Below, one piece after another: positions 1-60,275 of a DNA stretch of 64,000 nt. The notes beneath the pieces were generated by a model. The model worked only from the letters and a program-made list of their open reading frames with translations, was not told the origin of the DNA and made no database searches. The translations under genes were made by a program, and so were the position numbers. Numbering within the stretch: the first letter of the stretch is position 1; every line of letters begins with the position of its first letter. Source of the stretch: Amoebophrya sp. A120 (taxonomy: Eukaryota > Protista > Dinoflagellata); the NCBI GenBank assembly GCA_905178155.1, contig CAJINV010000006.1, positions 3,844,130 to 3,908,129 of the forward strand, in the 5' to 3' direction.

Positions 1-3000
1 TTTGTAAAGCACGAACGGCAATACAAGCATCAACAAGAGTGCCGGTTTTGCATGACAAATTTGCATCACATGAGTGTCTCCTTAGGCTACCACAACTTGC
101 CATGTAAGCGCTACCAAGAAACAAAGGGTGGATTGGGTATTTTGCATGACAAATGAGGGAATGGAGGGGAGTTATGCATTGTCATAGATGCTTCCGCAGA
201 GTCACTCTCCCGCAACACCAACTCGTCCTTTATCAGCTCCTTTTTCCCCTCATTTTCCTCGTCCTCGTTATCGATCGCACTCATGCCCCGGCTGCTCGCG
301 ACGAAATAGGTCACCCTCCTTTGCAGCCTTTCCCGCATATCACACAGAAAAAAAAGCTGCTAACACGTCATGGTCAACTACATGTGATGCAAAAATGAAT
401 ACCAATACGTATCTATAATAGTATTGCCACGTATCCTTCATCTACACAGCACGCGTATAGGCTCGGCTATGGCGGATCATTTTTGATTTTTGCATCACAG
501 ATTTTTGATATGGTGTGCTTCGCTTTTTTCATCTGTGGGATACCGCATGGAACGGCAGGTGACGCCCGGTTTTTTCTTCATGAAGTATCGTTCCTTAAAT
601 TCCAGCGCGTTCTCCGTTTGAAACCCGGTCTATGCATCACAAAAGCATCGTGGCTGAAGTAGTGTGCAAAATTTCGCATCACATCGGAGGTCTAAGGGCA
701 GTCCGTCCCTGTGCCTTTTCTAGGCCTACTAAAACCAATAAATCGCGACTACGTAGTGTAAACTTCTACTGAAAAGCTAAATTGGAAAACTTAGTAAGGC
801 TACTTCTACGTAAGCGCTTGTAAATAAGTACGCGATCAAAAAAGGTTTTGGCATCGCATAATTGTTGCCACCACAACAAGTGCGAATACCGCATCACATC
901 GGAGGTCTACGGGCAGTTCGTCCCTTTGCCATTCAGAGGCCTACTAAAGCCAGTATATGCTAAGCTACCTCGTAACGTAAACTTCTACGGGAAAACTAAA
1001 TCGGAAAAAACTTAGCATTGCTACTTAAGCGCTTGTTTTGTTGAAAAGGGAATAGTCATGCGAGGTATATCCGTTTTTTAGTGATGGGATTTATATTAAA
1101 TCCTTGTCGTGCTGCTATAGCAGGAACTACTTGCACGATACTTTTGCAGCGGATACGTTTGGATCTTTGTCAATCTCTTCACTGTATTTCGACGTCGATC
1201 CTATCAAATGCAAAAGTGTCTGCGTCTGGAAGGTTGGAACTTGTGATGCCAACTTTGGACTCTAAAAAAATCTGTATTGCATGACCCGCAAGAGGAGTCT
1301 AGTTCTTTGTGCTACGCGGGGAGGGCGTCTGTCATGCGGAGTAGGCATGATCAGTAAGCCCTCTAGAAAATCTGTGCCGCTAGGTCGTGCATTACAGACA
1401 TCCTGGGTCATGCAAAACATGCATGACAACTCTCAGAATCTTCCAGACCCAGACATTTTTGCATTTGATAGATCCGGGCAACAGCCCAAACGTCCGGTGC
1501 ATTGCGACTACAATGAGTTCCATCTCCGGCTTCGTAAACACGAGCTGGCAGGGAATTTGCCCCACGTCGTCGTCCTGTAGATCCACTTGATCCTTCAACA
1601 CGTCAAAAAAGTTGACGTCAAAAGTCGGCCGCCAGAAGTGCGTGTAATCGTGGATGAACCTGGTTTTCGTTTTTTATGTTTGTTATTCGTTAGGAAGTTG
1701 TCCTATGAATGCGCTTTCGCATCACAGAATGATATCCGGATTCATCACCAGCCTGTCATGCACAGCAGCGAGAAGAAGTGGAACATTTGCTTCGTACTGT
1801 TTCATCCATGATCATAGAAGGAAGTACTTAGTAGTACCCCATGCTGCTCTTAAAAGCCAGCTTCTGCTTTGCATTCCGCTGCATTCGGACATAGAGTCTC
1901 TCCACTAACTCTGCCGTCAAAAACGCGTCCCGCACTTCAGCCGGCATCTTGTACTCTGCGACGAAGTGCTCGCGCTCGTTGAGGCGCCGCCCGGATACTG
2001 TTGTTTGATGGAATACGAATATCTTTTATTTTTTCAGAAGCATCAAAACCCTCCGTCTTTTCATACTTGCGTATCCACAAACCTTTCCGCATGACAAATG
2101 CACACGGTCTCTGACGGCAAAAGAGGATTGGAACATTGAAATGAATATATCGACATCATCAAAATACACATCCCGGGCTCCGTTTTCCCTAGTAAGTCCT
2201 TTCCCGCTTCGGCAAATCGGACCGGTCGTTCGACTTGGACGTACGTCTGTAGTTCCTTCAGCATTAACCCTTCTGTTTGTTCGAAAAAGTGCGACGCCTG
2301 CTTCTATGCAATACAAATTTCCCCATGGCATGTACAAAATACATCACAAATTTCGCCAACAACTTAGGGCACACAGTTTGCCATGCTGAACAGGATTGAA
2401 AGGAACAAGCTTTGTCATGCAGCAACGGCATTTGTACTTGTACGGTTGGAAATTAACTGTGGATAGCTTCAGAAAGGGTTGCATCAGGCTCAAGTGCGTG
2501 CGAAACTTCGTCTGGATGCACTTCACGTGCTCGAAAAACCGCTTCAGGCCCTCTATTATCGGCACGGTATCCTGAGTAAAAACGTACCCACACCAGAGTT
2601 GTAATGCAAATCTGCATGCTGAAAATGTTTCTCATGCGGAGCCCCATGAGTAGCATTTTCTAGTCGTGTTTTGCAATTTGTCATGCTCTAATCAGCATGG
2701 TATGCTAGATCTGTGATGCTGCTGAGGTAGCTCAAACAGCACTACACTACGAATCCAAATTTGTCATGCAAAACAGCCAAAACTTGTGGATTTGTCTAGC
2801 CGATTCCCCATCTTGACTCTGGTGTGGGTACGTTTTTACTCAGGATACACGGACGGGGTTGTTCTCGCGAGGAAGTTTACCAGCCTTTGCGCGTGGAACT
2901 TCTTGATCCTTGGTTTTATCAGCAACCGGTATCATATATGCATTGCAAATACGTCTGGGAGGTGGTGTGGAAACTTGTGATGCGAAACTTCAAGGAAAAT

Positions 3001-6000
3001 CATATCTGTGATGCACGACGTCCGAATAGGATTGACCAACTTTTTTGTCATGCTGGATTATAGCAGTTTCTCATGCTTAAATCGAACGAATATGCAAGAA
3101 GCTGAGGAAAACTTGTCATGCTGTTAAGCCGAGCAAGCGGGTAGTGTGCGACGCAAGTAGCAGCAACACAAGTTTCGAGATGTACGTAAGGGAAAATGTT
3201 CCACCGGCCCCAGTTTTCCACAAATTGAAAAAAAAAAAAATCGCTCCGTCTCCTCCGGTAGTGGCTGACGTTGTGCGTCACCTTGGTCCACTTTCCCAAG
3301 TTCCTCGTGGCCGCGCATCCGGGTTCAATGATATGCAATGCAAAATCTGAACTAGCTAGCGGCGCACAATAGTAACTAGATTAAGACTAACACTTTGAAG
3401 ATGCGTGTAGCTTTGTCCTATTTTCTAAGACAATTTTCTGTAGCCCGGCAGGATGAACCGTCATGGAGGTCAGCAAGGCGGACGCTCCGAGCAGCGGCCA
3501 GCGGTGTAGACGTTGTAGTGCGGATACCTCGTCCCGAAGCGCAGCAGTTATTGTTCGCCGAGGTTCATCTGGACGGGCCTCTGTGGGACCTTGTGCGGCA
3601 AGATCTCCGCATCCGGATCTGGTGGCGGTCGGGAGGCAGCTAGCGAGCAAGAACAAACGAAGAAACAGCGACGACTGGCGCAATGGCCTTCCTTCTCCGA
3701 CCAATGCGCGGCCACTTCATTGCATGTCAGCAGCAGCTGCCTACGCCCCAAAGCCCAAAAATCAGCAGAATGGAGCGGCAGGAAGATCGTAGTGGGCACG
3801 ATAGCAAACCAGGGCCCTGCAATATCGATCACGATCGCGCAGCCTTCAGGAAATAGAATCGCCGCGCTTGAAGTCACAGGGCGGAAGGTCTCCGGCGCTA
3901 GTAGCTACAAAAACCCGGAACGCGGTCCGCCAAAGTGAGGCCCTTTTGGCCGGGGCCGATACAAGGCCCAACACCAATCACAGCACGAGCCGCAACACCA
4001 ACAGGCCAGAGGCGTCAAATGTTGCGCATTTACAAGAAGCACCTTCAGGCCGTGCCAAGTGCCCCTCTTGGAATCACCAAAGAAGCCACCGGCCTGCTAG
4101 AAGATAGTCACCCAAAAAGCACTGCTTTGCACTTGTCTAGGTTCGTAGCAGCATGAAACTTCTTGCGCGCCATATGAAACGGGGGCGCGGCCGCGACAAA
4201 TTGAGGCGGAGAAACGGAAGCAGTTCATGCACATGCTGGGCCCGGGGATCAGCGTTCTGGCGTCCCTGAAACAGGTCGGGAGCCCCTTCTCTTTTGCCCC
4301 GGCCGGCTCGTCGTTCGAGTTGGCGACGACCTTCCGAAGACCGCCGATCGTGCTGGAGCTGGCTGGTGGGGTGAAATTGGGCTCAGCGGCCCATCGGGAT
4401 CGTCATCCTGAGCAAGCCCGGCCGCATCCTGTTGCGCAGCCTGCCCTCCTGGTTGCGCCGCCTGCTGCCGCTGCGTGTCGTTCTCGTCGACGCCGATTGC
4501 GTCCCCGATGCGGGCCGAACCCACAATGGCCTTCGCTATGATTGCCAAACACAGCGCCCGGCTTTTTTTCTGCCACCTTATTGCGCGGCAGCCACCCCAC
4601 CGCCCTGCCTCCGCGCCGCCGCACAAGATGGGGGCGGCTGTGTGCGGGCTCATGAAAATAAAGAGGAGTATGACTGCGGCGCGAAAATGCCACAGGGCGA
4701 CGGGCGCAGGGGGCGCAGACTCCGGCCGGCCCGGGCCGCGCGGGGGGCGCAACAATTTGCCGCGCCAGGGTAGCCAGAAGCCGGCGCGCGGCATTTCGGC
4801 GCCGGAGGGGCCGGCGCCGAAGGAGCCGAAAGCGAAAAACCGAGACGAGCCGAAGGGCCCCCGCCTCGCCAGTCTCCCCCGGGGGTCTCGCGATTTTTTT
4901 CGTTTCTTGTGGACGTTTTTGAATAAGGACCTGAGTCGGTCGATTTTGTGGCCATTTTGGGCGCCCCGAACCGGGTCGAATTTGCCCAATTTCCTCGTGA
5001 GTGTCCAGGGGAGGTCTCCGGGGTCGCCGGTAACCAACGTTGCCAAGAACTGGAGGCCCCACCGAGTCGCCTTCTGCGCGCCTTTCGCGCGACTTTGATG
5101 CCCACGCGGTCAGGCAAAGGCCACTGGCGTCTCGGGCAAGGCGCCCAAAAAATGGCGCCCGGGGTGGTGGGCCGGCGAAATCAGGTGGCGCGGGGCTGCC
5201 TGGGGGTTTTGTGTTCTCTAGGGTGCCTAGGTCCAGCGTGGCAGTTTTGGAAAAGTGGGACGCGTGCCTGTCTTGAGTGCGTCCTTTAAGTCTTGCCACC
5301 CTCCCTCCCGCGTTATGTCCTGGCGCCTGTTTGGGAGAATTCCCACCCTTTATGCTGCGCAAAAGTGTCTGCCACGGGGGAGCTCCTTCTAGGCATGTCA
5401 TGCACAGTCTGCATTGCGGAAAAATCTGCCATGCATGTCTTTCGGAGAGGCATAGCCCCCGGAGAGCACAAAGTCGGCCCATCTGGGGCGGTAGCGCGCT
5501 ACCGGGGTGGCAAAGGGATTCTCGTCGGGCGGGGGGCCCTCGAGGGTGGGGTCATTCGGCGTCCGGTGTGGCCAATTTTCTAGCAGCAGACACTGTTGCC
5601 GTCCTTGTCTCGAGTCGCTTTCCGACTCTTTTGCGCGCGTTTTTCCAGTATTGGTAGGTCACCCCATTGCTGAAGCCCTTTTCGTATTTTTCTCGCGGCG
5701 GCGTGTAGCGTCGTATGTTGTGCAAAGGTGCTGCGCAGGTAAGGTGGCCTGGTTAACGCTCTGCGGCTCAGGAGCCAGCTCTGTGCCACTGCGTGCGTTC
5801 TCCTATGGCTGGCCCACCATGCGGAGTCAGTTCCTATACCTGTGCAGCATCTTTGCAAAGCATAGCGCGACACTTTCGAGCTCTTGCTGCAGTGGTTGTT
5901 GCTGCGGTGCATCCGCCCGAGCTGCGGAAACGCCCGCGCGGTTCCGGTCACCTCCAGAGTGTGTTTCCATTCGGAACTGTTCTGGTCCGTCAGACCGACA

Positions 6001-9000
6001 CAAATTCAGTGGCCACTCTTTGGGTCACAGAGTGGCGCACCCGGGGGGGCCTCGCAAGAGATCTTGTCCTGCAGTCCGGGGACATAGGTCCCAAATATGC
6101 CCAAGCAGGACAGGGGCTTTTTCTTTGTTGGTTCTAGGTGCGTCCTGTTGCCTGTTGCCACCGTGAGGAGCATGCTACGAATCGAGCAACACAGGCACTA
6201 GTGGTTTGGGCTTTTCAAGTTCATCGCCGTCATTGGGTGCAGGGAGATCTACAATTATGGCGACAGTGCTGAGGTACTCATCTACCCACAACCAACGGCG
6301 AGCCATTGGCAGCAGATCTGCGAGCATGTTTGCTGTGTCGAGACGCGGCATCGAAACGGCCTCGCGACGACGTACTGCAGCAGACGAAACCGGCAGCCTC
6401 CATCCCGCCGGAAAATCTGGAAGCCGAAACCGGAGAGGTGGAGTGGATCCGGAGCCGGAGGTGCTGCGGTGTCGTAGCTCTAAAGCCTTAAAGTTAGCGT
6501 ATCTATTGTGCGCCACTAGCTAGTTCAGATTTTGTCTTCCATAAAACAACTCCGAGGCCGCGGAATGGGAGTCGACCTGGGTTGCCGGAATCGAATGCCG
6601 CCCAGCGAGTCCCCTGCTATGCGATACATATGTTGAAAAAAATTTTGCATTTTGTGGAAAACTGGGGCCGGTGGAAAATTTTCCCTTACGTAAGATGCTG
6701 ACCCAGACATATTTACATTTTCTACCGCACCCGCGCGATCTTAAAGAGAAACCGGAACACCTTTGTACCGCGCACTGCACGCTTCAACTTGTGGATAAAC
6801 CGAAATACCCGAACCATGGCGCACCACCGGCCCTCGTTGTACCGCTTCCGCGCGTCGGGGGAATTGTTCAGCAGCAGACGGTGCATGATAGCTGGAGTGG
6901 GAAAATGAAATTTGTGAAATTTCTACTTTCGTTTTGCTATTGCTTTTGGAACAAAAAAAAAACAAAGACAACTTTACAAGTACATGCGAAGCTCTGCTGC
7001 AACATGAAGGCGGCCCATCTTCGTATTCTCCATTCCTCGTCTAGAACTTCCTCATCCCCGGCGGCGGGCTTTTTTCCAAACTGCGCAAACCCGGGGATCA
7101 TGGTCATCATCAGATTCGTCCTATGCATTGCAAACATCGTCGATCTGGGTCTCGATTTGTGATGCGAAGTTTGAAGGACAACCATATTGTTCATATCTGT
7201 GATGCATGCTGTGGAGGAACTATGGCGATAATATTCTTTCCGATGCATGATCAAGAACTGGGAGCTAGTTTGTGAAAAATGCTCTTTGCACAGTTTTCCG
7301 GAGAACGACCCTGACATCATGTTTGCACCAACCATACTTCCCACTGGGTCCAGAACCCCCCGCGCCGGTGTTCAGCAGCAGCCCCTTCCTGGCGTATTTT
7401 CCCTCTTCCTGCAGGTAGGCCATCTTGTTCAAGTAAGAAACCCCGCTGTTTATCACACCCTCCATCTTCTCCCGTTTAGCTGAATTCAAATTCCGGGTTA
7501 CCTGATAGTTATTTTCATGTTTGATGAGATGATGTTGATCTCCAAACTTTATTTCACGTATAGCATACGTTAAATGCGATCACTTGCGATGCAGAGATGA
7601 CCCGCATACTGTAGTACTGGGCTTTTGTCATGCAGAAAAACGGATGCACGGCAAGAGTACGGAAAAAAAGCTCGAATTATATTTATACCCGTAACTCCTT
7701 GTGGAACCGTTCCTGTTTTATCTTCGCGTAGATCTTTTCCCTTTCGCTCAGCTTGAACTGGTTTATGCACTGCAAAAGCACTCCTCTTTGCACCAAAAAC
7801 TACGACCTGTGCAGCACTCATAGTGTGCAATTTGTAATGCTAGTAACTCCGGTAATATCAGCATAAGTTTAAGTACTACAAGGCAAAATTCATCTGTCAT
7901 GCAGTATCTTTGCAAAAAGTTGCGCCATGTCTTTCGTTTTTGTGGGAGTTTTTTTGCAGAGGATATGGTTCGTTTTGTTTTTATTTCGCGAAACGTAGTC
8001 CGTTAGCTGCCCGTCGCTCGGGGCGGTTTGTGGTCACTTATGCATTTTTGCAAACGTGTCTGGGAGGTCTGGAAGGATGCGAACCTGTGATGCGCATTTC
8101 ACAGCACGCACAAACCTCTCATGCATAGGCAGCAAAAGTTGCTCACTTCCTGGCACCGAAGTGGACGTCGATTTGTCATGCGGATTAGGCGTTGCGAAAC
8201 CTTCTCAAGACCTGTGATGCTAGGGCCGGCTTCCATGCCAGACCTTCCGTGTCATGCAAAAACAGCATGGCAGAAATCTGCATTCTTCCAGACCCAAGCA
8301 TTTTTGCATTTGATATCGCTGCTTCAAGTCAAATTCCATCTTGACCCTCTCGAGAAGGCATCAAATGCAAATAGGTCTGGGTCTGGAAATTTGTGATGCT
8401 AGAATGTGCATGACAGAAACGCTCCCTCATGGAGGACAGCGTGACAAGTTTGCAGAGCGCTTCCTCATACGCACTCCGCATGAGAAACTGCGTTGTTGTA
8501 TGACAAGAGAGGCTGCGACTTTTGTTGGTCATGCAATACAGATCTTCTCACAGGAATGCAAGACCAGCATTACAAGTTCCAACTTTCCAGACCCAGACAT
8601 ATTTGCAATGCATAGAAAGGACGGGTTACCCAATCCGAGACAGGATTTCTGGATTTTCTCCACGTCCACCGTTTCAGTTACGTCGTTGCTCGAGGCTGCC
8701 CCCTTGTTGCTGGTTTTGTTTCCGTGCTGGTCGAGGATTTTTATGGGTAGCAACTGCCCAGAGGGTATCCTGTGAAAAAACGTCCCCACCCCAGAGTTGT
8801 CATGCAAACCTGCGTGCCTATAATGTTTCTCATGCGCAGACCCATGAGAAGCATTCCCTAGTCGTGTTTTGGAATTTGTGATGCGCGAATAAGCGTGATA
8901 TGCTAGATCTGTGATGCTTCTGAATCTGAGCCAGCCAAACCGGCATGCACTACAACATGGCCAAACTTGTCATGCGCAACAACCAAAAGTGGCTGATTTG

Positions 9001-9465
9001 TCTAGCATATTTCCCATCTTGACTATGGGGTGGGAACGTTTTTTCTCAGGATAGAGGGGGAAAAGGCTAGAGACTTCGGGCTCGCATCCGCACCCGCCGC
9101 GTTCGCTAGTTTAGCCGCCTTCTGCCGCTGCAGTTTCAGCCGGACCTCCGCGCGGATTTTCGCGTTTCTTATCGTGTGCAGATTGTGGAAGCCAAAGGAT
9201 TCGCCCTCGATCTTTACTTCCGGCTCGGTTATGCAATGTAAATTTCCCGCATATGTACAAAATGAGCATGACAAATCTTGCTAACTTGCAGTGTCCAACT
9301 TGTCATGCTAGACTAGGACTGAAGGCAAGTTTTCTCATGCAGAGACTGCATTTGTACGTCGTGTACGGGAAATTTACTGTGGATATCGGCATCGTCGTCT
9401 TTACTCCCCCCGCCCGCGCCGCCCGGCGGGTTCGAACTGGAGGCGGCGCCACCCTGTTGCTCCAT
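1..9465 (-). CDS. Multi-exon hypothetical protein with IQ-like motifs (gene 1; 3' end runs off the left edge of the window)
   Basis: ATG at 9465 (MEQQGGAASS...). Removing introners 9230-9385 and 8766-9053 plus one direct repeat each joins the frame (...DDDA|EPEVKIEG...AFSPS|GQLLPIK...). Other joins: KIARVR|LLIKPRIKK (across 2930-6723), TTPSV|PIIEGLKRFFEHVKCIQTKFRTHL (across 2568-2847), GLLPGS|TSKYSEE (across 1202-1470). IQ-like segments are VKCIQTKFRTHL and AAFMLQQSF. Some introns (~1650-1925, ~6890-6990, ~7490-7690) are degenerate and unresolved. Confidence 0.7.
1202..1470. mobile_element. Introner family A (mostly ~250-290 bp; TIR TATSNNNTGYAAAWRTGTCTGGGTCTGGAA), representative copy, TSD GATCC
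   Basis: TIR and 5-bp direct repeats read directly. Other members: 2930-6723 (holds a nested element), 7122-7336, 8039-8315, 8359-8614, 11670-11921, 11960-12221, 18023-18300, 18662-18931, 19578-19862, 20072-20354, 25853-26104, 26792-27053, 31282-31548, 35502-35753, 35836-36098, 38329-38607, 38980-39239, 40041-40295, 40851-41116, 41324-41558, 43874-44136, 45705-45971, 48554-48814, 48889-49162, 50516-50778, 51414-51682, 52575-52835, 53277-53554, 53918-54203, 60004-60275. Confidence 0.95.
2305..2465. mobile_element. Introner family G (~155 bp; ends TATGCAAT..AAATTT / AAATTTACTGTGGATA), representative copy, TSD GCTTC
   Basis: Other members: 9230-9385, 36780-36929 (TGAGT), and a partial copy at ~13660-13764. 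Confidence 0.88.
3183..6692. mobile_element. 3.5-kb TIR DNA element nested in a family A introner
   Basis: 42-bp TIR TACGTAAGGGAAAATKTTCCACCGGCCCCAGTTTTCCACAAA at 3183-3224 and 6651-6692 (one mismatch). TSD AGATG at 3178-3182 and 6693-6697. The host introner's right arm resumes after it (...ACAAGTTTCGAGATG|CTGACCCAGACAT). No intact transposase ORF was recognised. Confidence 0.9.
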
Positions 9466-10215
9466 TTTATTTGTGATGTACTAGTTCTGCGTCTTATACC
9501 CTTTCTCGGTCGAGAAGAGCAGATACTAGTTGCGGCTGACAACCGTGGTGATGAAGTAAGGTTCTACCACGCTATCAAAATTCTTGTTCTACTTGAGGTT
9601 CTAGAGAACTAGTCCTAGTGTTTCATCTTGTTTGTTGCATAAGTTAGTCAACTCTAGTTCTTCATCAACCAAAAGCAAAACAAGACTACTTGCAGTTGCT
9701 AGATAGTACCAATTGCGATTTACCCACCTGCCTGCCACAAACAACATCGCTCACGAACAAATCAACTGTGGACGCGACGCGATCGGAAAGTAGAACCCTC
9801 TCCAAGTATAACTTCATCTGGTTACTGAGGCTGAACAAGAGCAAGACACAACGACGACGACCACGTGTAGACGTAGGACTACCAGTAGACCTCGACCTGT
9901 AACTGAAGACGCTCTAGTACTGTGGTTCTTGTGCCCTCGATCGATATCTAGACTGTCGCGCGTTCTCCAGCCTCCTCACAGTTTCATTAACATCGTGGAT
10001 TCCCACGACGTGGAGGGGGCGAGATTTTACATTACTAATTTCACCAGTAGTACGACTTCTAATTCGACCAAAATGACGCTATCGACCACTACGAGTACGA
10101 AGAGGAAATAAATATTGAGAAGAAATAACGCCACAACCGGTCATGATGCTGGATGCGTAAACGATAAAAACGATCATACGAAGTCGAAGCGATTACTTCC
10201 ACACAATCAAAAATG

Positions 10216-11081
10216 AACAGCCACCAGCAAACCATCGTCCGCACACGAAGGGTCAAAAATGGAGTAGGCGTGGGCCTGCGGGCCTAAATTCCGGTGGGTT
10301 GGTCGGTTGGTTGGTTGGTTTTGGACAGACGACATTTGACCGAATTTACGAAGTATGGAGAAAAATCCCTGCTCGCTCTTGGCGAAGAGCGGAAAACCAT
10401 GCACCTGTCGCGGAGACAATAATCTCCTCGAAAAGATTATTGTCTCCCCGACAGGTAGATGGTTTTTTGTGGAGATTATTGTCTCACTCGCCGATACGTA
10501 GAGGTCGGAAATTGAAAATCGGAGCCCTGCCCTCGGGGGTGGGGCGGCTCCACGGTTTTGAATTTAGAAGACAGCCGCAACGGCAAGGAGGGCGAAACAC
10601 GATAAGGGGGTGGTCGGGGCGCGCGGCGCACCTGCCTCCCTACCGGGGCTGCAGCCCGCCGCTGCGAGGCAGAGTGCGATGTGTCCACGCAACACAGACG
10701 CCAATCTGTGTTGCGCGGACGCCAATCTGTGTTGCGCGCACCACAAATCTGTGCTGCGCGCAGCTCGCCGCAGACACAAATCTCCGCTACGCGTAGCACA
10801 AATCTGTGTCGCGCACAAATCTGTGCTGCGTGTTGCGCACAAATCTGTGTTGCGTGGACGCAAATCTGTGTTGCGCGCAGCAAAAATCAGTGTTGCGCGC
10901 AGCTCGCCGCGAGCACCAATCTGTGTTGCGTGGACGCAATCGGAGCTCCGGGGGGCCTCGTGAGAATTTGCGCGAGATAGAAAGAGGTCGGGGCTCCAGT
11001 GCTGCATTTTTCTCCAGCCGCGACCTGCGTTTCCTCAACAGCCACCAGCAAACCATCGTCCGCACACGAAGGGTCAAAAAT
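10216..11081. mobile_element. 776-bp insert flanked by a perfect 45-bp direct repeat
   Basis: AACAGCCACCAGCAAACCATCGTCCGCACACGAAGGGTCAAAAAT occurs at 10216-10260 and 11037-11081. The interior holds a long hairpin and a minisatellite. Confidence 0.7.
10690..10940 (+). repeat. Imperfect minisatellite, ~20-bp unit with core CAAATCTGTGYTGCG
   Basis: About ten head-to-tail variants such as CACAAATCTGTGTTGCGTGGA and CGCCAATCTGTGTTGCGCGGA. Confidence 0.9.
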
Positions 11082-11241
11082 ACCAATATGCAGCTAAGCA
11101 AACCACTGTGGGTTTTTTCAACAACGGCGGCCACTCCAGCAAGAAGTGAGGGCGTAGACCACGTGGTCTCAAATCGATTGCAATTCTAGTTTACGGTTAG
11201 TATAAAGTGTGTGTGTTTGTTGTTCGTTTATTTTCTTTTCA

Positions 11242-13313: not shown

Positions 13314-13336
13314 CTTGGGCTTCACTTTAGTACTGT

Positions 13337-49100: not shown

Positions 49101-52100
49101 CAGATTCAGCATGACAAGTTGCAATCTTCCAGATCCAGACCCAGACATTTTTGCAATCCATAAAACTGCCATTTTTGCAAGTGCGGCGCCAGCCCGTTCT
49201 GCTGCGCTTCGACAGCGTATCAAAAGGGAAAATGCCCCCTCGCTCCCCATATCGAAACGAAGTTTCTTATGCTGAATCAATTTGCGAACACAAATCAGAC
49301 TTGTCTTTCTGGAGAGGACTGCAGGCCTATGCTCAGCCTGAGTAGGGAGGTTTTGAGCTAGGCGCTGAGCATGGCAAGCGTGTAGTCTCTAGGGCCAACA
49401 GCATCACGAACCGCCTGCAGAATGCGGCGGAGCCTGTGGAGTTGCGTTCTTGCAACACAGAGACGATTTGTGGTCACAAATCAGCATCACGAATTTTCTG
49501 ATGCGTCCCTTTTCGATATGGGGAGGGGGGATTTTTTCTTACGATACAGCGGGGTCGATCTTCAGGTCGCCTTCTGCTGCGCCGCCCAAATCCCCCTTGC
49601 TCATGCTGCGGTTGGTCAAGTTCAAAAAGTTCAACTTTTCAATTTCCTGCACCGGGGGAAGCAAGTGCGGGTCCGCGCCGACAATGAACTGCTCCGCTTT
49701 GCTCGTGTTTTCGTGGACGATTTGGTCACGCCACGTGAAAACCACTCTTTTCGTTTCAATCGTGTTGGCTTTTCCAGAGTGCGACGCCGCGGTGGTTTTT
49801 TTCCCGCCCTGTTTCAGATATTCTCCGGAGGAAAACAACAGCAAATTTTTCAACGACTGCACCCAGGAACCGTACTTTAATAGCAGCCGCTTCCGAAACA
49901 CAAATACCCCGACCTGCGGGGCGGACAGAGCGAGGAGGTGGAACCAGGTTTCCTTGGGGATTCCGTCGATCTTCCTGGTCTCAGTTCGCTGGGAAAAGTG
50001 CGTCATCTTCGATAAGCATTTCGCGTACTCGAAAAGCGCGTTTGCCTCGTCGTCCTGGACCTTCCGTCTCCGCGCCGCCAAGTGCCGGTACGCAGGGTCT
50101 TCATACGGGTCTTCGTGAAATGCCCAGCAGTATCCTGCGTAAAAACGTCCCCACCCCAGAGTTGTCATGCAGCTTTGCGATTACAGGAACATTTGTGATG
50201 CGCAGCTCTACGAGAGGCGTTTCCAGTCATGTTTTGGAATCTGTAATGCTGTAAAACAGGATGAGCTTCCCTTGCTAACCAGCACTTCCCTTGCTAACCA
50301 GCACTACACGGGAGACGGAAACTTGTCATGCACAACTCCCAAACCTTGGAGATTTGTGTTGCAGATTTACCAACTTGACTCTGGGGTGGGGACGTTTTTA
50401 CTCAGGATAAACAGTTGGACAGTTTCAGCGAGTCCTTGTTCGTTTCCACCAAGTTTTCAATCACCTGATTCCGCTGATCCTCCAGATCCTCTGGGTCTTG
50501 CGCGCTGGAACCGGGTATCAAATGCAAAAGTGTCTGGGTCTGGAATGTTGCAACCTGTGATGCTGTCTTTGGAAGGTAGGAAAAATCTGTATTGCATGAC
50601 CAGCAAGAGGAACTCAGTTTGTGCTACGCGGAGTGGGCATTTCTCATGCGGAATACGCATCAGAAGGACCGTCAAAAATCTGTGATGCTAGGTCATGCAT
50701 TACAGGCATCATGGGTTATGCAAAATATACATGACAAGTCTCGCAATCTTCCAGACCCAGACATTTTTGCACTTGATACCGGGAACGGCGGACGCGAGAA
50801 TTTGGTTGACTTCCAACTTGGTGAGTTCCGGCTCCTCTTCTTCCTCAAAATCGACCCCGATGTTGATCTATGCATTGCAAAAGCATCACACTACGTAGTG
50901 GTAGTAATTGCATTTCTGCATTACAAATCTAGTTCCTAAGGTCAATCCGCATTACAAATTGGATTATGTAATGTTGCTAACGCTAAGTCAATTTGTAATG
51001 CAATTTATACTAGAAGTGCGGTGCTTTTGCAACCCATATAATCTCCTTTTTCTTCGTTTCGGACTTGGATCCAGAGCGGCCGTCCACTTGAAACCCATCT
51101 TGGTCACCACCGTCGAAAAGTTGCTCTTGCTGCTGTGTTTTATCATCAACACCGCCCGGCGTCGCTGGCGCGGTACTGGTCGCGGATTCCTCCGCTAGAT
51201 TCCGGTCGTGAACCAGTTCTAGATACGCTTTCACCAAGTTTTCCCGAGTCACAAACTCCTGGATCTCAATCCCCGCGGATTTGGCTAGCTCCACGTTGCG
51301 ACCGAGAGAAGTTGTGTTATTTTTTCCGGTTTGTCCCCTTGCCGTTTTCGTCCCATCTGCTTCTTCCTGGTCTTCCTTGTACCTTAAATCTTGAAACGCC
51401 GCTTCGAAGCTGTTATGGATTGCAAAAGTGTCTGGGTCTGGAAGGTTCTGAGACTTGTCATGCACGGTTTACATGAGACGTGATGTCTGTGATGCATGCC
51501 CTAGCATCACAGGTTTTTTGAACGATTCATGATGCCTGTTCCCCATGACAAATGCCCTCTCTGCGTAGGAAAAATTAGAATCCTTTTGCTGCTCATGCAA
51601 CACAAATTTTTTTAGATATCGATATCCAAATGCAGCATCACAAGTTGCGTTCTTCCAGACCCAGACACTTTTGCATTTGATAGCTGTTGTATTTCTGCAG
51701 CACCATGGTTCGCAACTTCAGTAATTGCGAAGAGGACACTATCGAGCAAAAAAACTGTGTAAGTGTAACTTTGTAGGCAGAGGAGCATCACAAATTCGTT
51801 TTGCATTACAGAAAAAACCTGTCAAGCGCAGCTAGTACGTGAAAACACGTATGATACACAGCTATGCCTATGACGCACTTCCAGCATGACAAGATGTAAC
51901 TGTTTTGCAGTTTCTGCATCACAGATTTACACTTAAGTACACAGTTTTTTTCTTGCATAGACACGTCGCACAAAGCGGTCGCGATTTCATCCACGTGCAC
52001 CTTCTGATTCGGCATGTCCGCTAAGAAAGCCGGCCGCCCCGTCAGCATCTTGAAAATGTTCGACAAAAACTCCCGTTTCGTGATCAAAAAAAGGTTCTGC

Positions 52101-54704
52101 GCATTGGACAACCCGTCGAGAGGACCACTTTCAGATTGTAGTTCCCCGGTGGAAAAGTTGTTCGTATTGTCCCCCTGCGAATGAATTATCCGGTCAAGCA
52201 GCTGTGTCCCGTCGGCAGAGAAAATTTCCTTCACCTTCGGAATTTTCAAAATCCCGAGCTGCTTCTGCTCCGTCGGGAAGAAGGCCCGCTCCGCTAGGTC
52301 GACAAAAGCCGAGAAATGCACCATGTTCTGCTCCGACACGGCGGTGGTATTTGCGTTGTTCTTGAACAGAAGCGCTTCGATGACAGAGAGGATGCTGGTG
52401 CTGGATGACACAGACACTCCAGTGGACGCATTAACATCAAGCATCTGATCGTCAAGTGGTGGTCCCCCAAGAACTGCTGAGCCCCCGCTTGCCGTGGATT
52501 GCAGCAAGTTATCCCGGATCCGGGTCATCAGCAACTTCCCCAAGCGGTTCACGGAGTAGCACAGCATGGCCAGTTATCAAAAGCAAACATGTCTGGGTCT
52601 GGAAACTTCAACTTGTGATGCTGAGGTCTCGATGACTGAAATACCTTCCAATGCAGCCAAGCATGACAAGTCTCGCGCACACTTTCTCATGTGCAGCCCG
52701 CATGAGAAACTGCGCTTCTGTATGACAAAAGATGGCGTCTTTTTGCTAGTCATGACGCAACACAGATTTTACAAGAGTGCAGGACTAGCATTAAAAGTTC
52801 CATGCTTCCAGACCCAGACATGTTTGCAATGCATACCAGTTGCCGTCGCGCTTCCAGCGGCGACCCAAACGACCGTGGCAGGCTGTCCACCCTGGTCAAA
52901 TGTATCCCACGAAAAAACTGCTTCACTGTGAACTTGTGGTGCATGGAATGGAACACAAAACGATTTGTCTTGCTACACATGCAAGACATTGGATTTTTAA
53001 GTGTGTTTTCCCTTGGGAAGTGCGCATGGCAAATTTTCTGTACCATATGTAACAAACTTGTGATGCAGATCTTGCAAAATCATGACAGTGAAACAGTTTT
53101 TTACTGCGATAAAATGCACGTTCGGTGTGATCCGGTCTCCGGGGGAGTAGGAGATCAAATCGCAAGCGAGAAATTCGTGCATCAGGTTATAGTGCAACAC
53201 CTGAAAATAGTTCAGCTGGACCAAATTTTGGAGAAAAAAGTCCGTCGAGGACAAATTCAGGCTCCTCCGGGACCGTTATGCATTGCAAATACATCTGGGT
53301 CTGGAAACTTGTGATGCATGTCAGTGGATAGAAAGCACGTAGTGACGAACCACCAAGCATGACAGATTTTTTCGTAGGAGCGAGCTCCGTGTTCTTCCGT
53401 AATCCGCATGACAAAGTAAGACAAACAGCCTTCTTGCATGACAGATCGAAGAGGAGCTCTTGCTGGCCCCGCAATACAGAGTTCAGGGTCATGGAAAACC
53501 AGCATGACAAATCTGGCACTCTTCCAGACCCAGGAGACATATTTGCAATGCATAACCGTAACGCGTGCACCAAAGGCCACTCGACCAGATTCGACTGGTC
53601 CTCCAGCCTATCCTGTGCAAAAGTATCGTACTCGTATAAATGCAAGTCTTGCATCACAAATTTTTTTCTGAAGGTAAATCCGCATTACAAATTTTATATC
53701 TCATGCTGAGGAAATTTGTAATGCATTTATACGAGTACGATACTTTTGCAGTGCATACAGCCAGGGTTGCCAGGGTGGCGTTTTCAACTTGATCCGCATC
53801 TTCGTGAGCCAGGATCTCAATTTCAACACGGATTTTAAAGATAAGCGGCCCTTCTGCTCCTCTTCCTTCTGCTTCCGCTTGGCTTCCTGGATGAGCGGAT
53901 CGTCTTCCTCCTCCGTTTATGCATTGCAAATAAATATGTCTGGGCCCGGAAGAAGTGGAACTTGTAATGCGGATTCTGGAATAGGTAAAAATTTGTACTG
54001 CATGAGCACCAAAAGCTTCACATTTTTTCTTGCTACGAAAATAGGCTATTTGTCATGCGGTACAGGCATCAGGAGGCCAGTGCGAAAGCGAAACCTGTAG
54101 TGCTTTATTTGCGTGCATAAGAGACAGTTTGAGTGATCGAGAACAGGCATGACAAACTTTAACTTCTGCACTCGTCCAGACCCAGACACACTTGCATTTG
54201 ATACCGTTTCGAACTCCTCCATGGAGGAGGTTCCGGGAGTGGACACGAGACGAGAATCCCGTATCCTGCGTAAAAACTTCCCCACAGCACCAGCAGAGTC
54301 AAGATGGGAAATCTGCTAGACAAATCAGCCAGCCTTGGCTGTCTGGCATGACAAGTGTGCCCTCGTAGTGTAATCCTGTTTAGCTAGTTCAGAAGCATGA
54401 CAGATCTAGCATAGCATGCTGATCCTAGCATCACAAACTCCAAAACACGAATAGAAAATGCTTCTCATGAGACTCCGCATGAGAAACTTTTTTGGCATGC
54501 AGAATTGCATGACAACTCTGGGGTGGGGACGTTTTTACTCAGAATATCCCGCTCCGACTCTTCATCCCCGTCCCGGGGGGAGATCTCCGCGTCGTTGTCA
54601 GCTTTGTCGCCGCTCGCATGATCTTCGAGGGCCTCTAGCTGGTCATTCGCGGAGGAATTCTGTTCCTCCGCGTCGAGTGCGGTTGCGTCTACTTCGGCCG
54701 CCAT
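31140..54704 (-). CDS. Very large multi-exon protein with fibronectin type-III-like repeats and long low-complexity regions; 37 introners
   Basis: ATG at 54704 (MAAEVDATALD...) and stop at 31140. Long exons at 33211-35253, 41559-43873 and 31549-32930. FN3-like strings: PGRPTIENVTPTSCELKWRP...VTEYVVRAEP, FHVSNLTPGLPYRFSV, QAPGRPEIIRISTEEATLRM. The gap at ~37830-37990 (GACAG/GTATT donor-like) could be an ordinary intron or a gene boundary, so this could be two genes. Confidence 0.7.
32931..33210. mobile_element. Introner family C (~280 bp; TIR TATCCTGNGTAAAAACGTCCCCACCCCA), representative copy, TSD CCACG
   Basis: Other members with direct repeats: 2568-2847 (CACGG), 8766-9053 (GAGGG), 15095-15372 (CGTGG), 44687-44978 (CTTCC), 46977-47258 (TTCAA), 50131-50409, 54262-54546 (TCCCG). 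Confidence 0.93.
49218..49546. mobile_element. Introner family D (~320 bp; TIR TATCNNANGGAAAAATCCCCCCTCCCCATATCGAAA), representative copy, TSD CAGCG
   Basis: Other members: 13898-14229 (TTCGT), 20660-20980, 44178-44498, 47350-47660. Confidence 0.92.
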
Positions 54705-56537: not shown

Positions 56538-58261
56538 CTATCTCTCCTTGCTAGAAGTCCACCACAGCCATAACCTCAGCAGCAGGCACCCTGCCGAAAA
56601 GACCGCGGCGGCAAAATTCGCGGCGCCCAGAAACTCCGCATTGTCGACTGTTACCAGCAAGTGAAACGCCCAGGAGGAGCAGACGAACAAGCCGAAAAAA
56701 TTCTGCGCGAAAGAGCCCATGTATTTATGAATTGTAAAAGTATCGCACTCGTAGTAATTGCAATCATGCATTACAAATTTTTTTCTAAAGGTGAATCCGC
56801 ACTACAGATTTTATTTCTCATGCTGAGGAAGTAGTTGTAGTTTTTTTGTAATGCATTTATACCAGTACGATACTTTTGCTTTTGCAATGCATAGTACTCC
56901 GCTTTCCGTAACTCAAACGCCTTGTACGCGTAGAACGCCGGGGAGCCCATGTAAACTAAAAAGGTTGTCATGCCGAGCAGCTGGAATACAAGTTTCACCT
57001 CCAGAATGAGAACCGTTGATTTGTAATCCTGATTTTTGTCTTCTTCACTTGCGTCGGATGAGTCGTCATTCGTCTCGTTATCGACCCAAGCGGTCAGTAC
57101 TGTCGGGTAGTCGATCGCAGCGGTGATAATGAAGATTATCGTGATCAATAGCAGGTAGCAAAGGAGAATTTTTGTCTGTCTCCTGAACTGTTTTTCGTAT
57201 AAATCCATTCTGTAGCAATGCCGGTAGAGGTAGACCCAGAGAAAGCCCGCAAGCGTCTGCACCGTGCAGGGGATGATCCCGGTACGGAGCCCGTCGAGGA
57301 ACATGAAAAGCGTCCACGTCCACCCGTTGGCGCACTGGGCCAGGAACTGGAGAGGCGGGGTTTCGAGGAAGAGATGGTGGTGGTGGTCTTGTTCTTCTTG
57401 GGGTTGGGCAACATTTTTTTCGTCCTGCTCGGATGAAAAGCGGTGGAAGTGTGCTTGGTCGCTGCTTTCAACGTGAAACGCCTCGTCCCCGGACGAGGGG
57501 GTCTTGTTTGATATTTCAACCGCTGTTAAGTTTTCGGCGGCGATTGTTATTGCTGAACCACCGGCACGAAGAATATGGTGCTTCTCAACCTGCTCCTTAT
57601 CGTTGTTTTGAAAAATTCTTGTAGTCCTAGTGCCGCCTTCCTCTCCTTCCTTGACAAAGCAAGTGCGTGGTGGAAGTGCACCAATAGCACAGCCAGCAGT
57701 GTCATGATTCTCATGATCCAACACCGCAGCGGTCGTGCTCGAAGAGGACGATTGTTCTATGATCAAGTTGTCATCCCCCGTGCTGGCTACAACTGCTCCT
57801 CCTGCATTTGTGGATGTTGCACCTGAACCAAGGCTGATCCTGATGGTGATTGCTTCATTTTCGCTCGCACTTTTGTTCGGCGACGAGAGGGCCACGTCGA
57901 TCACCGGATTACAAACGACGGCGTCATGGATAATGTCGTCTACTTGTAGCTCCTGATGCGGTTCTACTTGCTGCTGGTGCTGTTCTTGCTCTCGTTTCAC
58001 CTCCTGTGGTCGTGCCTCAACAGCTGCACCCTTGGCGTGGCGGTCTGTAATATCCTCATGCTTTCTCACCGCACGAAGACAAGGACAACATGTTTTTGTG
58101 TTTGTGTCGTGACAAAAATTTTGGCTCTCGTAGTACGTACTTTTCTTCCTCCTGACACGATAAATGTCGTAAAACAGCTGGGCAGGGCCAAAATAGAGAA
58201 ATATGGGGAAACCAGCTATGACAATGTCGTAGAGAAGAATTTGCCAGCGACTTTCAGACAT
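56538..58261 (-). CDS. SWEET/MtN3-like sugar transporter with a large low-complexity insertion; one introner (56726-56893)
   Basis: First repeat: FLYFGPAQLFYDIYRVRRKKST...PPLQFLAQCANGWTWTLF. Second repeat: LVYMGSPAFYAYKAFELRKAEY|MGSFAQNFFGLFVCSSWAFHLLVTVDNAEFLGAANF. These match the MtN3 'SP...KKST...P...N..W' and 'YGSP...EYM...SW...D...N' patterns. The frame is restored across the introner. Confidence 0.75.
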
Positions 58262-60275
58262 GAGAGCAGCGCGGCAATGCTTGAAAAACTGAATTGAGTG
58301 GAGGTCTACGGGACGTGGAAAGAAGTAGAGGAGCGACTGACAAGTACTACTTAGGCTCAGACGACATGCTACTTTACCTAAAACAGGTTGATACGTAGCC
58401 GGGCAGCCAGTGGGCTCTTGTCCTCTACTAGTTGTCCGAGCAGAGGCAATTTTAACCTTCTCTGTGAAGATCCAACTTATGGTGAAGTAGAACTTTAAAA
58501 GCAACGAATTCGTTGCGTCAGACAGAACGAGGTCGGCAACTACAACAGGTTTCTCTTCGAGGCACGGACCAAGAACGAGGTTCTTGTCGGACGAGGGAAA
58601 TGAAAAAAAGAGCAAGTAGTACTAGTACAACTCCACAGAACGATCACAACGTACGTTTGATACCTGAGCAAGCACGACGTAAAAAGAAAAACGCTACGAC
58701 AACGACCTGAACGACAGGACGATTACATACGATCTACAGAGCGCCAACAAGCAACCGGCATATAATCTGCGACCTTCGATGAATACTGAATAGTCAAAAC
58801 AACGAAAAAATCGCTGCACGAACGACGAGGAAAATATTGCTACAACATTCATCGTGCTGGCCTCTTCCTACCAGCACTTGTGCTTCTGGAGAAGTACAAC
58901 TCACCGGTCGTTTACAAGAAGAAGAACTTCGTCTGCTATAATTTCTGAATTCACAGTCGGTGCTCGCTATTGGCAAACCTGTACTCGTCCGGGTTCGAAG
59001 TCGGTGCTCGCTATTCACACCGGGGCCATTTTTAGGCTCGCTATGGCAAACCTGCAGCATCCAGGGACCCTGACAAGGCTCTCGCCCCCACGGCTTTTGG
59101 TAGATTAAGCAACATCCGTTCCCAACAATGACGAAGAACAACGCCGAAGAACACTTTTTAAGAGATAAGTCAGAAGGCTACTGGACGCCATTGCCATCAA
59201 TTTTTATCACAAGCAAAAAAACTTCTCACATGTTGGGTAGACGGCGACGGGCTACGACTTGACAGAGTAAAGCAATACAAAATAGGTCCCAGGCAGGCTA
59301 TGCACGTACGAATCAAGTCAAAGACGTCAAAGCGAGAGGAGAGTCGTAGTTGTAAAACTTTGAGTTTGGTGCGCATGTATTTTTATGTGGTTTGTTAATA
59401 TGTACTTTTGGTGTGTCTTTCTCAGAAACTACATACAAATTGTGTTGTTACTATGTATAAGGACATCTTTTTCCACATAGATATAACTTTCTGTGCGACC
59501 AGCGCGTAAATATTGATTGTTAAGGTAAAAATGGGAGCCAGGGTTACAGTACTTCATGTGGGATGCATTTTCGAAATACTCAGGGGGCAGAAAACTCTGA
59601 ACGAAGACTTCTTGAAGGCTGCTTGTACTTGTGCTTGCTAACTAGTGTCTGTCTCTGTAAAGTTCTTTTGAAAAATAAAGGGTGATGCTGAAGGAAAACC
59701 GATATGTTTAAAGCTGCGAGCTTGGCTGGAAGAGTTGTGGGTGATATCATGTATCGTATACCCGGACGCAAAAAAGAAAAACAAGTTGGCGTGGTATCAC
59801 AGTACTCTAGAAGAATACTTACGGACGAAGTCCAAAGGCGTACATACTTTTACCATGCTTAGTTAGACTTACCACTTTTTTGAAATTTTAGGCACTTGAC
59901 AGAAAATCAAAATTTGAGAAGATATTGAACTTGAAAAAATAAAAATGCGCTTTTGCGCAAAAAATGAAATACTTTTGCAATTCTTCGCTTAACTAGTTGA
60001 TTTCATGCACTGCAAATATCAATATGTGTCTGCGGTCATGCTAGGCCGGCGTGACTCGTCTCAGGTCTGTCAATGTCATGCAAATTAACACCACAGTGCT
60101 GCAGTTCTCTGTCATGCTCATGCAGAGCCGCTGTTTGCCATGCAAAACAGCCAACACCAACACCTATTTACTCAAGTCACAAACTTTTCATGCTGAGTCG
60201 GCAATTGCCGAGTCGTCATAATTCGTCTACCCGCATCACAAGTTTCCAGACCCAGATCGATATTTGCACTTGATA

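What the first reader, a model, noticed from the sequence alone, without database searches (positions are those of the whole stretch)
1..60275. About 76 introns are TIR/TSD transposon-like elements that cannot be removed by GT-AG splicing
Seen: the elements begin TAT and end ATA (a few have mutated ends) and are flanked by a 5-bp direct repeat. Removing element plus one repeat restored conserved protein motifs wherever I translated the join (HVDAC|LGGF, MFML|SNPLH, GGEM|NGRTIKV, AEY|MGS). Several sense-strand repeats contain no G at all (CCCTC at 8766, TCTTT at 12495, CTCTC at 21360, TTCTA at 16384), so no sliding of a precise junction can give a GT/GC donor or AG acceptor. Established: IR/DR non-canonical introners are described in Amoebophrya, but the removal mechanism is unresolved as far as I know. 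Inference: a structure-guided RNA excision (TIR stem plus repeat pairing) or an unusual spliceosome operates here.
Basis: partly seen in the sequence, partly recalled or inferred. Interest (0 to 1): 0.8.

Follow-up and report, generated by a model that had tools for sequence, protein, structure and literature searches.

The report
Known Amoebophrya introners, fixed cut position
These are the already published transposon-derived introns of the plankton parasite Amoebophrya A120; transcript assemblies lack each tested copy plus exactly five bases, whichever way round it sits and mostly without GT-AG signals, which likely means that a relaxed spliceosome measures its cuts from the element's ends.

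Summary
Observation confirmed: 74 elements (133-346 bp; TAT...ATA ends, 5-bp repeat). 62 lie in six minus-strand genes; 12 are not shown to be introns. The window is Amoebophrya sp. A120 (an exon is 100% identical to a named A120 protein), and these are the introners of Farhat et al. 2021, so the class is already known. This scan has noted them before on other pieces of the same genome (27 notes). Added here: RNA contigs of one sample skip element+5 bases at 13 of 13 elements laid. At 6 of 6 sites with unequal repeats the upstream copy is kept, which fixes the cut at TAT or one base before it and disfavours a reverse-transcriptase artefact and 'repeat pairing'. Both orientations of a family are removed. 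A sister assembly has empty sites with one 5-mer, so the repeats are true target duplications. 5 of 73 elements do allow GT/GC-AG. The machinery is not shown: a U1-independent spliceosome cutting by distance (0.55) against a separate Euglena-like excision system (0.3). Tests for selection on RNA stem pairing were negative. One decayed copy (11421-11619) would settle the last base of the register.

The parts
31143..54704 (-). 4751-codon gene of no recognised family, holding 37 elements (starts 31282, 32931, 35254, 35502, 35836, 36780, 37042, 38329, 38980, 39290, 40041, 40577, 40851, 41324, 43874, 44178, 44687, 45041, 45705, 46753, 46977, 47350, 47905, 48554, 48889, 49218, 50131, 50516, 50869, 51414, 51740, 52575, 52903, 53277, 53609, 53918, 54262) and one GT-AG intron
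   Evidence: Stop-free after removing each element+5 and the canonical intron; at most 800 codons if +0, 1, 3, 4, 6 or 7 is removed; +2 also keeps the frame. Coordinates of one RNA contig fit element+5 for 9 elements by sums. No Pfam hit for 3 exons.
17395..22292 (-). Pyridoxal-dependent decarboxylase-fold gene (sphingosine-1-phosphate lyase-like by my reading of its motifs), 785 aa, with 11 elements: 18023-18300, 18399-18549, 18662-18931, 18992-19167, 19256-19475, 19578-19862, 20072-20354, 20408-20558, 20660-20980, 21059-21275, 21360-21492
   Evidence: Splice keeping the upstream repeat equals P0001 (A120, CAD7954282.1) at 785 of 785 residues; keeping the downstream repeat gives 2 differences. 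PF00282. 8 joints seen in RNA contigs.
25815..29146 (-). 671-codon gene with an RRM-like C-terminus (by eye); elements 25853-26104, 26139-26355 (reads GT..AG if cut one base before TAT), 26594-26743, 26792-27053, 28250-28464; GT-AG intron 27910-28104
   Evidence: All 5 elements and the canonical intron are skipped in X3, X4 and X5; ORF.
11240..13313 (-). Thioredoxin-like gene, 375 aa, with elements 11670-11921, 11960-12221, 12495-12705 and the decayed 11421-11619
   Evidence: PF13905; ORF.
11421..11619 (-). Decayed element whose two repeats differ at sense positions 2 and 5 (AAATA / AGATC): the only site found in the window where RNA can tell a cut at TAT from a cut one base before it
   Evidence: Removing it +5 extends the ORF from 322 to 375 aa; both registers give the same protein. 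Not tested on RNA (both lays were used before I found it).
8000..9470 (-). Gene fragment with elements 8039-8315, 8359-8614, 8766-9053, 9230-9385
   Evidence: 157 codons open after removal; no RNA laid.
56538..58300 (-). Gene with element 56726-56893
   Evidence: 529 codons open after removal; no RNA laid.
338..16544 (.). Ten elements outside modelled genes: 338-542, 1202-1470, 2305-2465, 2568-2847, 7764-7965, 13898-14229, 14609-14758, 14804-15019, 15095-15372, 16384-16544; several lie in a mosaic of copied exon fragments and element halves
   Evidence: Intron status not shown.
60004..61743 (.). Elements 60004-60275 and 61398-61743, host genes not modelled
   Evidence: coding-like flanks on the minus strand.
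37805..37989 (-). Ordinary GT-AG intron (185 nt) in the large gene
   Evidence: Accounts for the remaining 185 nt in the RNA contig sum; ends read.
22756..22757 (-). AG acceptor where a spliced leader is joined to the decarboxylase-fold mRNA
   Evidence: An 11-letter loose end of an X5 contig plus the genomic AG ends in TCAAG, the leader end given in Farhat 2021 methods. One contig.

Best explanation
The elements are short non-coding DNA-transposon copies that inserted into exons with a 5-bp target duplication and are missing from transcript assemblies as element plus five bases, likely cut out by a U1-independent spliceosome that reads the symmetric element ends and places its cuts by distance. 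Shown: insertion duplicates 5 bp; removal is precise; the upstream repeat (at least its first 4 bases) stays in the mRNA; removal works in both orientations and needs no AG. So the intron is either TAT...ATA plus the 5 downstream repeat bases, or N-TAT...ATA plus 4. Inferred: the second register (about 65-70%), in which the 5' end reads N-T-A-T like a GT-A-T donor with a relaxed first base; the 3' cut is set 4-5 bases past ATA by a ruler; the ends are brought together by the hairpin or by a protein on the symmetric subterminal 8-mer; catalysis is by U2/U5/U6. Mobilisation is likely in trans by an integrase-like DDE transposase (not found here).
For: Precise removal at 13 of 13 elements laid and at 9 more by sums. 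Upstream copy kept at 6 of 6 informative sites, covering repeat positions 1-4; P0001 agrees at 2 of 2 non-synonymous sites; L032 shows the upstream copy to be the ancestral one at 35502 and 37042. The same transcripts carry GT-AG splicing and leader trans-splicing. Farhat 2021 found U2, U4, U5, U6 and 83 of 89 spliceosomal proteins in A120 but no U1 (section read). In 261 oriented elements the first T of the sense 5' end never changes while its mirror A changes 7 times (p 0.016); repeat position 5 is poor in C against a symmetric-target model (p 0.015); one element reads GT..AG at register -1 (26139). A spliceosome adapted to non-canonical TIR/TSD introns is reported for Fritillaria (review PMC11282704, passages).
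Against: No AG enrichment at either candidate acceptor (24 and 16 of 261) and GT..AG at register -1 in 8 of 261, as chance predicts. Both orientations are spliced, so there is no one-way branch site or pyrimidine tract. The first A of ATA, a possible branch base, changes in 2 of 261 against 6 at its mirror (p 0.29): not shown to be protected. The T invariance is 1 of 14 positions tested and does not survive full correction. Support for register -1 from the mutation spectrum is only 1.3 log units on 9 cases. In Euglena, similar hairpin introns are thought to use other machinery (PMC12501133, passages). No lariat data. All RNA joints come from one sample, as assembled contigs.
Confidence: 0.55

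Rival explanations
1. A separate, non-spliceosomal RNA excision system (nuclease plus ligase, or a novel RNP) recognises the hairpin and the TAT/ATA ends, cuts with a 4-5 base stagger and joins the exons, as proposed for Euglena nonconventional introns.
For: Orientation independence; no AG preference; strong hairpin (z -6.9); U1 not found. With the cut at TAT, ATA sits at -8,-7,-6, the place given for the paired CTG of euglenid introns (PMC11282704 figure legend).
Against: No excess of G-U over A-C mismatches between the arms (251:218, p 0.14; a smaller set gave 171:129, p 0.018, which did not hold); sense folds are not more stable than antisense (98 of 170, p 0.12); arm positions 4-7 often differ and the terminal triplets were unpaired in the copy folded. 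The strand-specific constraint on the first T fits a donor-like signal.
Confidence: 0.3
2. RNA polymerase II skips the element during transcription: it stalls at the element end and the nascent RNA re-anneals to the downstream copy of the target duplication, so no intron RNA is made.
For: Predicts that the upstream copy is kept, that orientation does not matter and that no dinucleotides are needed, all as seen. Repeat position 5 is identical in 71 of 71 window elements tested.
Against: The upstream base is kept even with a mismatch at position 4 (28250, 37042), where a slip would more likely fall earlier; position-5 mismatches occur in 9 of 200 elements of the sister assembly and at 11421; an unspliced contig exists for 19578 (depth 10-13 against 68-69 spliced); I recall no precedent for efficient 150-350 nt skipping by this polymerase (own knowledge).
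Confidence: 0.06
3. The elements are excised from DNA in part of the life cycle or part of the nuclei, as ciliate internal eliminated sequences are, and the excised genes are transcribed.
For: TA-ended, precisely removed inserts in exons resemble such sequences (own knowledge). Only 15 of 2474 joints were shown, so rare excised DNA forms are not excluded.
Against: The DNA-like run X1 has contigs that run from exon into element at depth 25-37, the same as unique sequence (26-30); the assembly itself holds the elements; an unspliced contig stands beside the spliced one in X3 and X5. X1 may be the source of the assembly.
Confidence: 0.04
4. The joints are reverse-transcriptase template switches across hairpins flanked by direct repeats, and the mRNA keeps the elements.
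For: A hairpin between short direct repeats is the known substrate of such artefacts (own knowledge); all evidence here is cDNA-derived.
Against: A switch copies the downstream repeat first and should keep it; the upstream copy is kept at 6 of 6 sites. Joined forms dominate (depth 68-136). 51 of 73 elements would shift the frame if kept, and a 4751-codon frame stays open across 37 of them.
Confidence: 0.02

Closest known systems
Introner elements among the non-canonical introns of Amoebophrya sp. A120 (Farhat et al. 2021, PMC7789003; read sections 10-12, 16, 31, 32, 36 and searched passages of the supplement; figures not visible)
   Same: Same organism (P0001, 100% identity); inverted repeats start TAT, seven looser bases, then at least three A; direct repeats of 3-5 nt (a 5-bp example in the Fig. 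S19 legend); about 240 nt; 29,850 repeated copies genome-wide; no transposase found in A120; U1 not found.
   Different: The paper calls the splice sites variable relative to the hairpin and the border unknown. Here the repeat is always 5 bp and the cut is fixed to within one base, keeps the upstream copy and works in both orientations; the varied dinucleotides of its Table S4 likely reflect ambiguous mapping inside the repeat (inference).
Nonconventional introns of Euglena (PMC12501133, Significance section and passages; review PMC11282704, passages)
   Same: No GT-AG; inverted repeats at the ends; direct repeats at the junctions; coexist with ordinary introns; likely transposon origin.
   Different: Paired CAG/CTG at +4..6 and -8..-6 rather than TAT/ATA at the very ends; circular excision products and genetic tests are reported there, nothing of the kind here; A120 elements fall into recent repeat families.
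Non-canonical MITE-derived introns of the tunicate Fritillaria borealis (seen only through review PMC11282704, passages; primary paper not read)
   Same: TIR/TSD origin, non-GT-AG ends, removal ascribed to an adapted U2 spliceosome.
   Different: Preferred ends AG-AC or AG-AT exist there; here the 3' dinucleotide is whatever the target site supplied.
Introners of Micromonas, Aureococcus, Symbiodinium and others (PMC9860276 and PMC12130899, passages)
   Same: Non-autonomous DNA transposons with TIR and TSD that create introns on insertion without changing the mRNA.
   Different: Those carry or co-opt GT/GC and AG and so need a fitting target; A120 elements show no AG enrichment.
IS3EU/GingerRoot DNA transposons (PMC10045372, passages)
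   Same: TA..TA termini.
   Different: Their TSDs are usually 6 bp, here 5 bp; no transposase was found to place the elements.

Membership tests
Amoebophrya A120 introner elements (Farhat 2021) | Located in the A120 genome | tested here: met
   Exon 21495-22289 is 100% identical to P0001, named Amoebophrya sp. A120.
Amoebophrya A120 introner elements (Farhat 2021) | Inverted repeat starting TAT, 7 looser bases, then at least 3 A | tested here: met
   End profile: TAT at 1-3, A at 11-13 in 92-95 of 98 ends; definition.
Amoebophrya A120 introner elements (Farhat 2021) | Direct repeat of 3-5 nt at the borders | tested here: met
   55 of 73 perfect 5-mers, 16 with one mismatch, 2 with two.
Amoebophrya A120 introner elements (Farhat 2021) | Repeated families | tested here: met
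   Five families of 14-82 members among 170 elements of the window and the sister assembly.
Amoebophrya A120 introner elements (Farhat 2021) | Removed from RNA without GT-AG | tested here: met
   13 of 13 joints, 11 of them with no GT/GC-AG placement; one sample.
Non-autonomous TIR DNA transposon (MITE-like) | Target duplication made on insertion (empty site holds one copy) | tested here: met
   6 of 7 orthologous sites are empty with one 5-mer in L032 (one of them differs by a base); L032 has 3 insertions of its own.
Non-autonomous TIR DNA transposon (MITE-like) | A cognate autonomous element or transposase | tested here: inconclusive
   Only 470 kb scanned; 11 longer TA..TA candidates; no Pfam hit above a curated cut-off in 20 of 35 ORFs of the 3.5-kb one. 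No whole genome held.
IS3EU/GingerRoot | TA..TA termini | tested here: met
   definition.
IS3EU/GingerRoot | TSD usually 6 bp | tested here: not met
   5 bp at the empty sites; 0 of 71 elements have a 6-bp repeat. Not filed under this family.
U2-type spliceosomal intron | GT/GC donor and AG acceptor | tested here: not met
   Possible for 5 of 73 only; no AG enrichment in 261.
U2-type spliceosomal intron | Lariat with a branch adenosine; dependence on U2/U5/U6 | not testable with these tools
   Contigs cannot show lariats; conservation of the candidate branch A is inconclusive.
Euglena-type nonconventional intron | End pairing required for removal | tested here: inconclusive
   Hairpin present in the copy folded; no signal of selection on pairing.
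Euglena-type nonconventional intron | CAG/CTG at +4..6 and -8..-6 | tested here: not met
   Ends are TAT/ATA.

The most novel reading that the evidence does not exclude
Amoebophrya A120 runs a second, non-spliceosomal route for tens of thousands of exon insertions: a nuclease-ligase, or a polymerase jump, that recognises only the symmetric transposon ends and undoes the 5-bp target duplication at RNA level, in either orientation and at any target sequence. That would make any exon insertion of these transposons harmless.
Probability: 0.33. Interest if true: 0.88.

Novelty: already known. Interest (0 to 1): 0.45.

Why it matters
The elements are published, but how they leave the RNA is open in the papers I read. 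A fixed register turns a vague 'variable splice sites' into exact predicted intron ends, so lariat or circle assays and mutant minigenes can be designed. Removal that is blind to orientation and to target sequence explains how about 30,000 copies could spread through exons, and either outcome is of interest: a spliceosome that needs neither GT nor AG nor U1, or a second excision machine converging on the Euglena case. The score is held down because the class is described in this very genome, the register rests on one RNA sample, and the machinery was not identified.

Tried and rejected
No whole genome is held, so no genome-wide count was possible. The first lay was swamped by element repeats; its joint table was of no use and only the pieces table was used. 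Protein searches for the large gene and for an L029 exon found nothing; the L072 search returned a read-through of the same contig, so no orthologue could decide repeat position 5. L040 seemed to favour the cut at TAT through a stop codon, but the frame was probably the shadow strand; dropped. Frame alone cannot separate +2 from +5; RNA does. A G-U excess in 166 elements faded in 261. A protected branch A at the first base of ATA was not confirmed. Selection for AG or GT-AG targets was not seen. The viral collection holds no match to the end pattern. The 3.5-kb TA..TA element shows no transposase domain and little coding signal. Rows left out: 86 of 286 sister-assembly elements could not be oriented; 12 window elements outside modelled genes and the 74th were left out of the strand tests; two false candidates were dropped. 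Searches for a published mechanism gave 5, 14, 5 and 2 papers; I saw no mechanistic test for Amoebophrya in the passages read. Roy et al. 2023 (Curr Biol) and Henriet et al. 2019 were not read, and the supplementary figures S19-S25 of Farhat 2021 were visible only as legends; they may already show part of the register.
Full report
Observation. A strict scan for TAT...ATA with an identical 5-mer on both sides and similar arms finds 49 elements, against 0-1 in each of 10 shuffles. With imperfect copies the catalogue is 73 plus one decayed copy at 11421-11619. The 73 are 133-346 bp, cover 27% of the window, and have 5 of 5 repeat bases equal in 55, 4 of 5 in 16 and 3 of 5 in 2. 61 of the 73, and the 74th, lie in six minus-strand genes; 12 lie outside genes I could model and are not shown to be introns. 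Removing each element plus five bases and one GT-AG intron opens a 4751-codon frame across 37 elements; removing +0, 1, 3, 4, 6 or 7 leaves at most 800 codons, +8 leaves 2381, and +2 also keeps the frame.

Identity. Exon 21495-22289 is 100% identical to P0001, named Amoebophrya sp. A120. Farhat et al. 2021 (PMC7789003; sections 10-12, 16, 31, 32, 36 and supplement passages read, figures not visible) describe A120 introners whose inverted repeats start with TAT, seven looser bases and at least three A, with direct repeats of 3-5 nt and 29,850 repeated copies; they found U2, U4, U5 and U6 but no U1 and no transposase in A120, and call the splice sites variable relative to the hairpin. The end profile here is that motif. 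The class is therefore already known. A look-up of this scan's notes shows 27 earlier findings with these words, 8 listed, all on other pieces of the same genome; they are unchecked and count as leads only.

Removal from RNA. Runs X3-X5 are contigs of one sample with a guessed RNA label. They lack GT-AG introns and one contig ends in the spliced leader, so I treat them as cDNA. In 18900-29400 all 13 catalogued elements are skipped as element plus five bases in all three runs, at depth 68-136; one further joint, inside an element, is seen in one run at depth 8. One X3 contig fits element+5 for 9 more elements and a 185-nt GT-AG intron by coordinate sums. Raw runs X8 and X9 laid 8 and 4 reads and add nothing. 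The DNA-like run X1 runs from exons into elements at single-copy depth; only 15 of 2474 joints were shown, so rare excised DNA is not excluded.

Register. Where the two repeats differ, the joint shows which copy stays. It is the upstream copy at sense position 1 (18992, 21059), 2 (20660), 3 (26594), 4 (28250) and 1 and 4 (37042): 6 of 6. The public protein agrees: 785 of 785 residues with the upstream copy, 2 differences with the downstream one. So the intron is TAT...ATA plus five bases, or starts one base earlier and ends four past ATA. This disfavours a reverse-transcriptase switch, which should keep the downstream copy (inference), and repeat pairing, since 37042 is removed with 2 of 5 bases unequal. 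Position 5 is equal in all sites laid, so the last base is open. Indirect hints lean to the earlier cut: it gives N-T-A-T, like the donors GTATTG and GTAAAT of the two ordinary introns; element 26139 then reads GT..AG; position 5 is poor in C against a symmetric-target model (p 0.015); the mutation spectrum favours it by 1.3 log units on 9 cases. Two earlier notes claim this register; I could not verify it. The site 11421-11619 would decide it.

Transposon nature. A pattern scan gave 148 loci of one other assembly; L032 is orthologous to 32.9-38.7 kb at about 90% identity. Of 7 window elements there, 6 are empty sites with a single 5-mer (one differing by a base), 1 is shared, and L032 has 3 insertions absent from the window. 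At 35502 and 37042 the sister sequence matches the upstream copy, so the downstream copy is the one that drifted. A copied fragment at 16083-16217 likewise lacks element 18662 and holds one 5-mer. An 8-mer, TGT(G/C/A)ATGC, stands on either strand in 256 of 261 elements (12.6 per kb against 0.09 in coding sequence), mostly 30-50 bases in from each end, likely a binding site for the transposase or the excision factor. TA..TA ends recall IS3EU/GingerRoot, but those usually make 6-bp duplications (PMC10045372, passages), so I do not file them there. An A120 TIR family with LTR-like reading frames is described in PMC12130899 (passages) and is a lead for the mobiliser. No transposase was found in the 470 kb scanned.

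Signals. Families insert both ways relative to transcription (53:29, 15:18, 5:10, 12:2, 6:8), and direct RNA joints exist for both orientations in the two largest. A codon model oriented 59 of 59 called window sites correctly and 200 of 286 sister elements. In 261 oriented elements: AG before either candidate 3' cut in 24 and 16, GT..AG in 8 (chance about 8); first T of the 5' end unchanged in 261, its mirror changed in 7 (p 0.016, 1 of 14 positions tested); first A of ATA changed in 2 against 6 at its mirror (p 0.29), so the 'invariant adenosine' of earlier notes is not confirmed here; G-U against A-C mismatches 251:218 (p 0.14). Sense folds are not more stable than antisense (p 0.12, n 170). 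One element folds strongly (z -6.9) with its terminal triplets unpaired. A full unspliced contig was listed only for 19578, whose 3' end is mutated (depth 10-13 against 68-69, X3 and X5); 331 pieces were not shown, so this is a hint.

Mechanism. Best supported (0.55): a U1-independent spliceosome reads the symmetric ends, takes N-TAT or TAT as donor and sets the 3' cut by distance. It must already choose GT-AG donors without U1 if the reported loss is real, it acts on the same transcripts, and Fritillaria offers a precedent (review PMC11282704, passages). Against it: no acceptor signal, no one-way branch site, no lariat data. Rival (0.3): a separate hairpin- or end-guided excision system as proposed for Euglena (PMC12501133, passages). 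Minor rivals: polymerase jump (0.06), DNA excision (0.04), cDNA artefact (0.02). Steps shown are insertion with a 5-bp duplication, precise removal, retention of the upstream copy, orientation independence and lack of AG; the last base of the register, the recognition mode and the catalyst are inferred.

Verdict. Already known as a class; interest 0.45 for the fixed register, the empty sites and the orientation result, which I did not see stated in the sections of Farhat 2021 read or in passages from searches (Roy 2023, Henriet 2019 and the supplementary figures unseen), and which make the open mechanism directly testable.

Noticed in passing
window 3183-6692: A 3510-bp element with 50-bp terminal inverted repeats (94%), TAC...GTA ends and a perfect 5-bp target duplication (AGATG), 59% GC, nested in a decayed 260-bp-family introner (about 2937-6723), with a second inverted pair inside (3332-3372 / 6503-6543). 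No Pfam hit above a curated cut-off in 20 of 35 ORFs and weak coding signal. A long relative of the introners; possibly a decayed autonomous or cargo-carrying copy.
   Followed up: partly
window 13280-16380 and 1-2560: Mosaic of element halves and copied gene pieces: two exon pieces of the decarboxylase-fold gene (16083-16217, 95-97% identical, lacking element 18662 but followed by half of an element like 18992), four copies of the 5' start of the thioredoxin-like gene (13282, 14549, 15613, 16338), and pieces shared with 187-254, 1732-1874 and 2466-2552. Looks like fragment capture by the elements; an assembly fault is not excluded.
   Followed up: partly
window 19578-19862: The only element listed with a full unspliced contig (about 13-16% of local depth in X3 and X5) is the one whose sense 3' end is mutated from ATA to AAA: a hint that ATA affects efficiency.
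   Followed up: partly
window 22756-22757: Spliced-leader junction about 465 nt upstream of the start codon of the decarboxylase-fold gene (one X5 contig).
   Followed up: partly
window 31143-54704: A 4751-codon gene with 37 introners and no Pfam hit in 3 exons; one exon found no long relative in the protein search.
   Followed up: partly
L032 and family counts: The sister assembly shares 1 of 10 insertion sites with A120 over about 5.8 kb at 90% exon identity, so the same families spread separately in both; two families show an orientation bias (53:29 and 12:2).
   Followed up: partly
window 58448-58967 and 63395-63920; 6762-6968 and 14230-14446: Dispersed repeats without TAT...ATA ends (75% over 561 columns; 82% over 223).
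   Followed up: no
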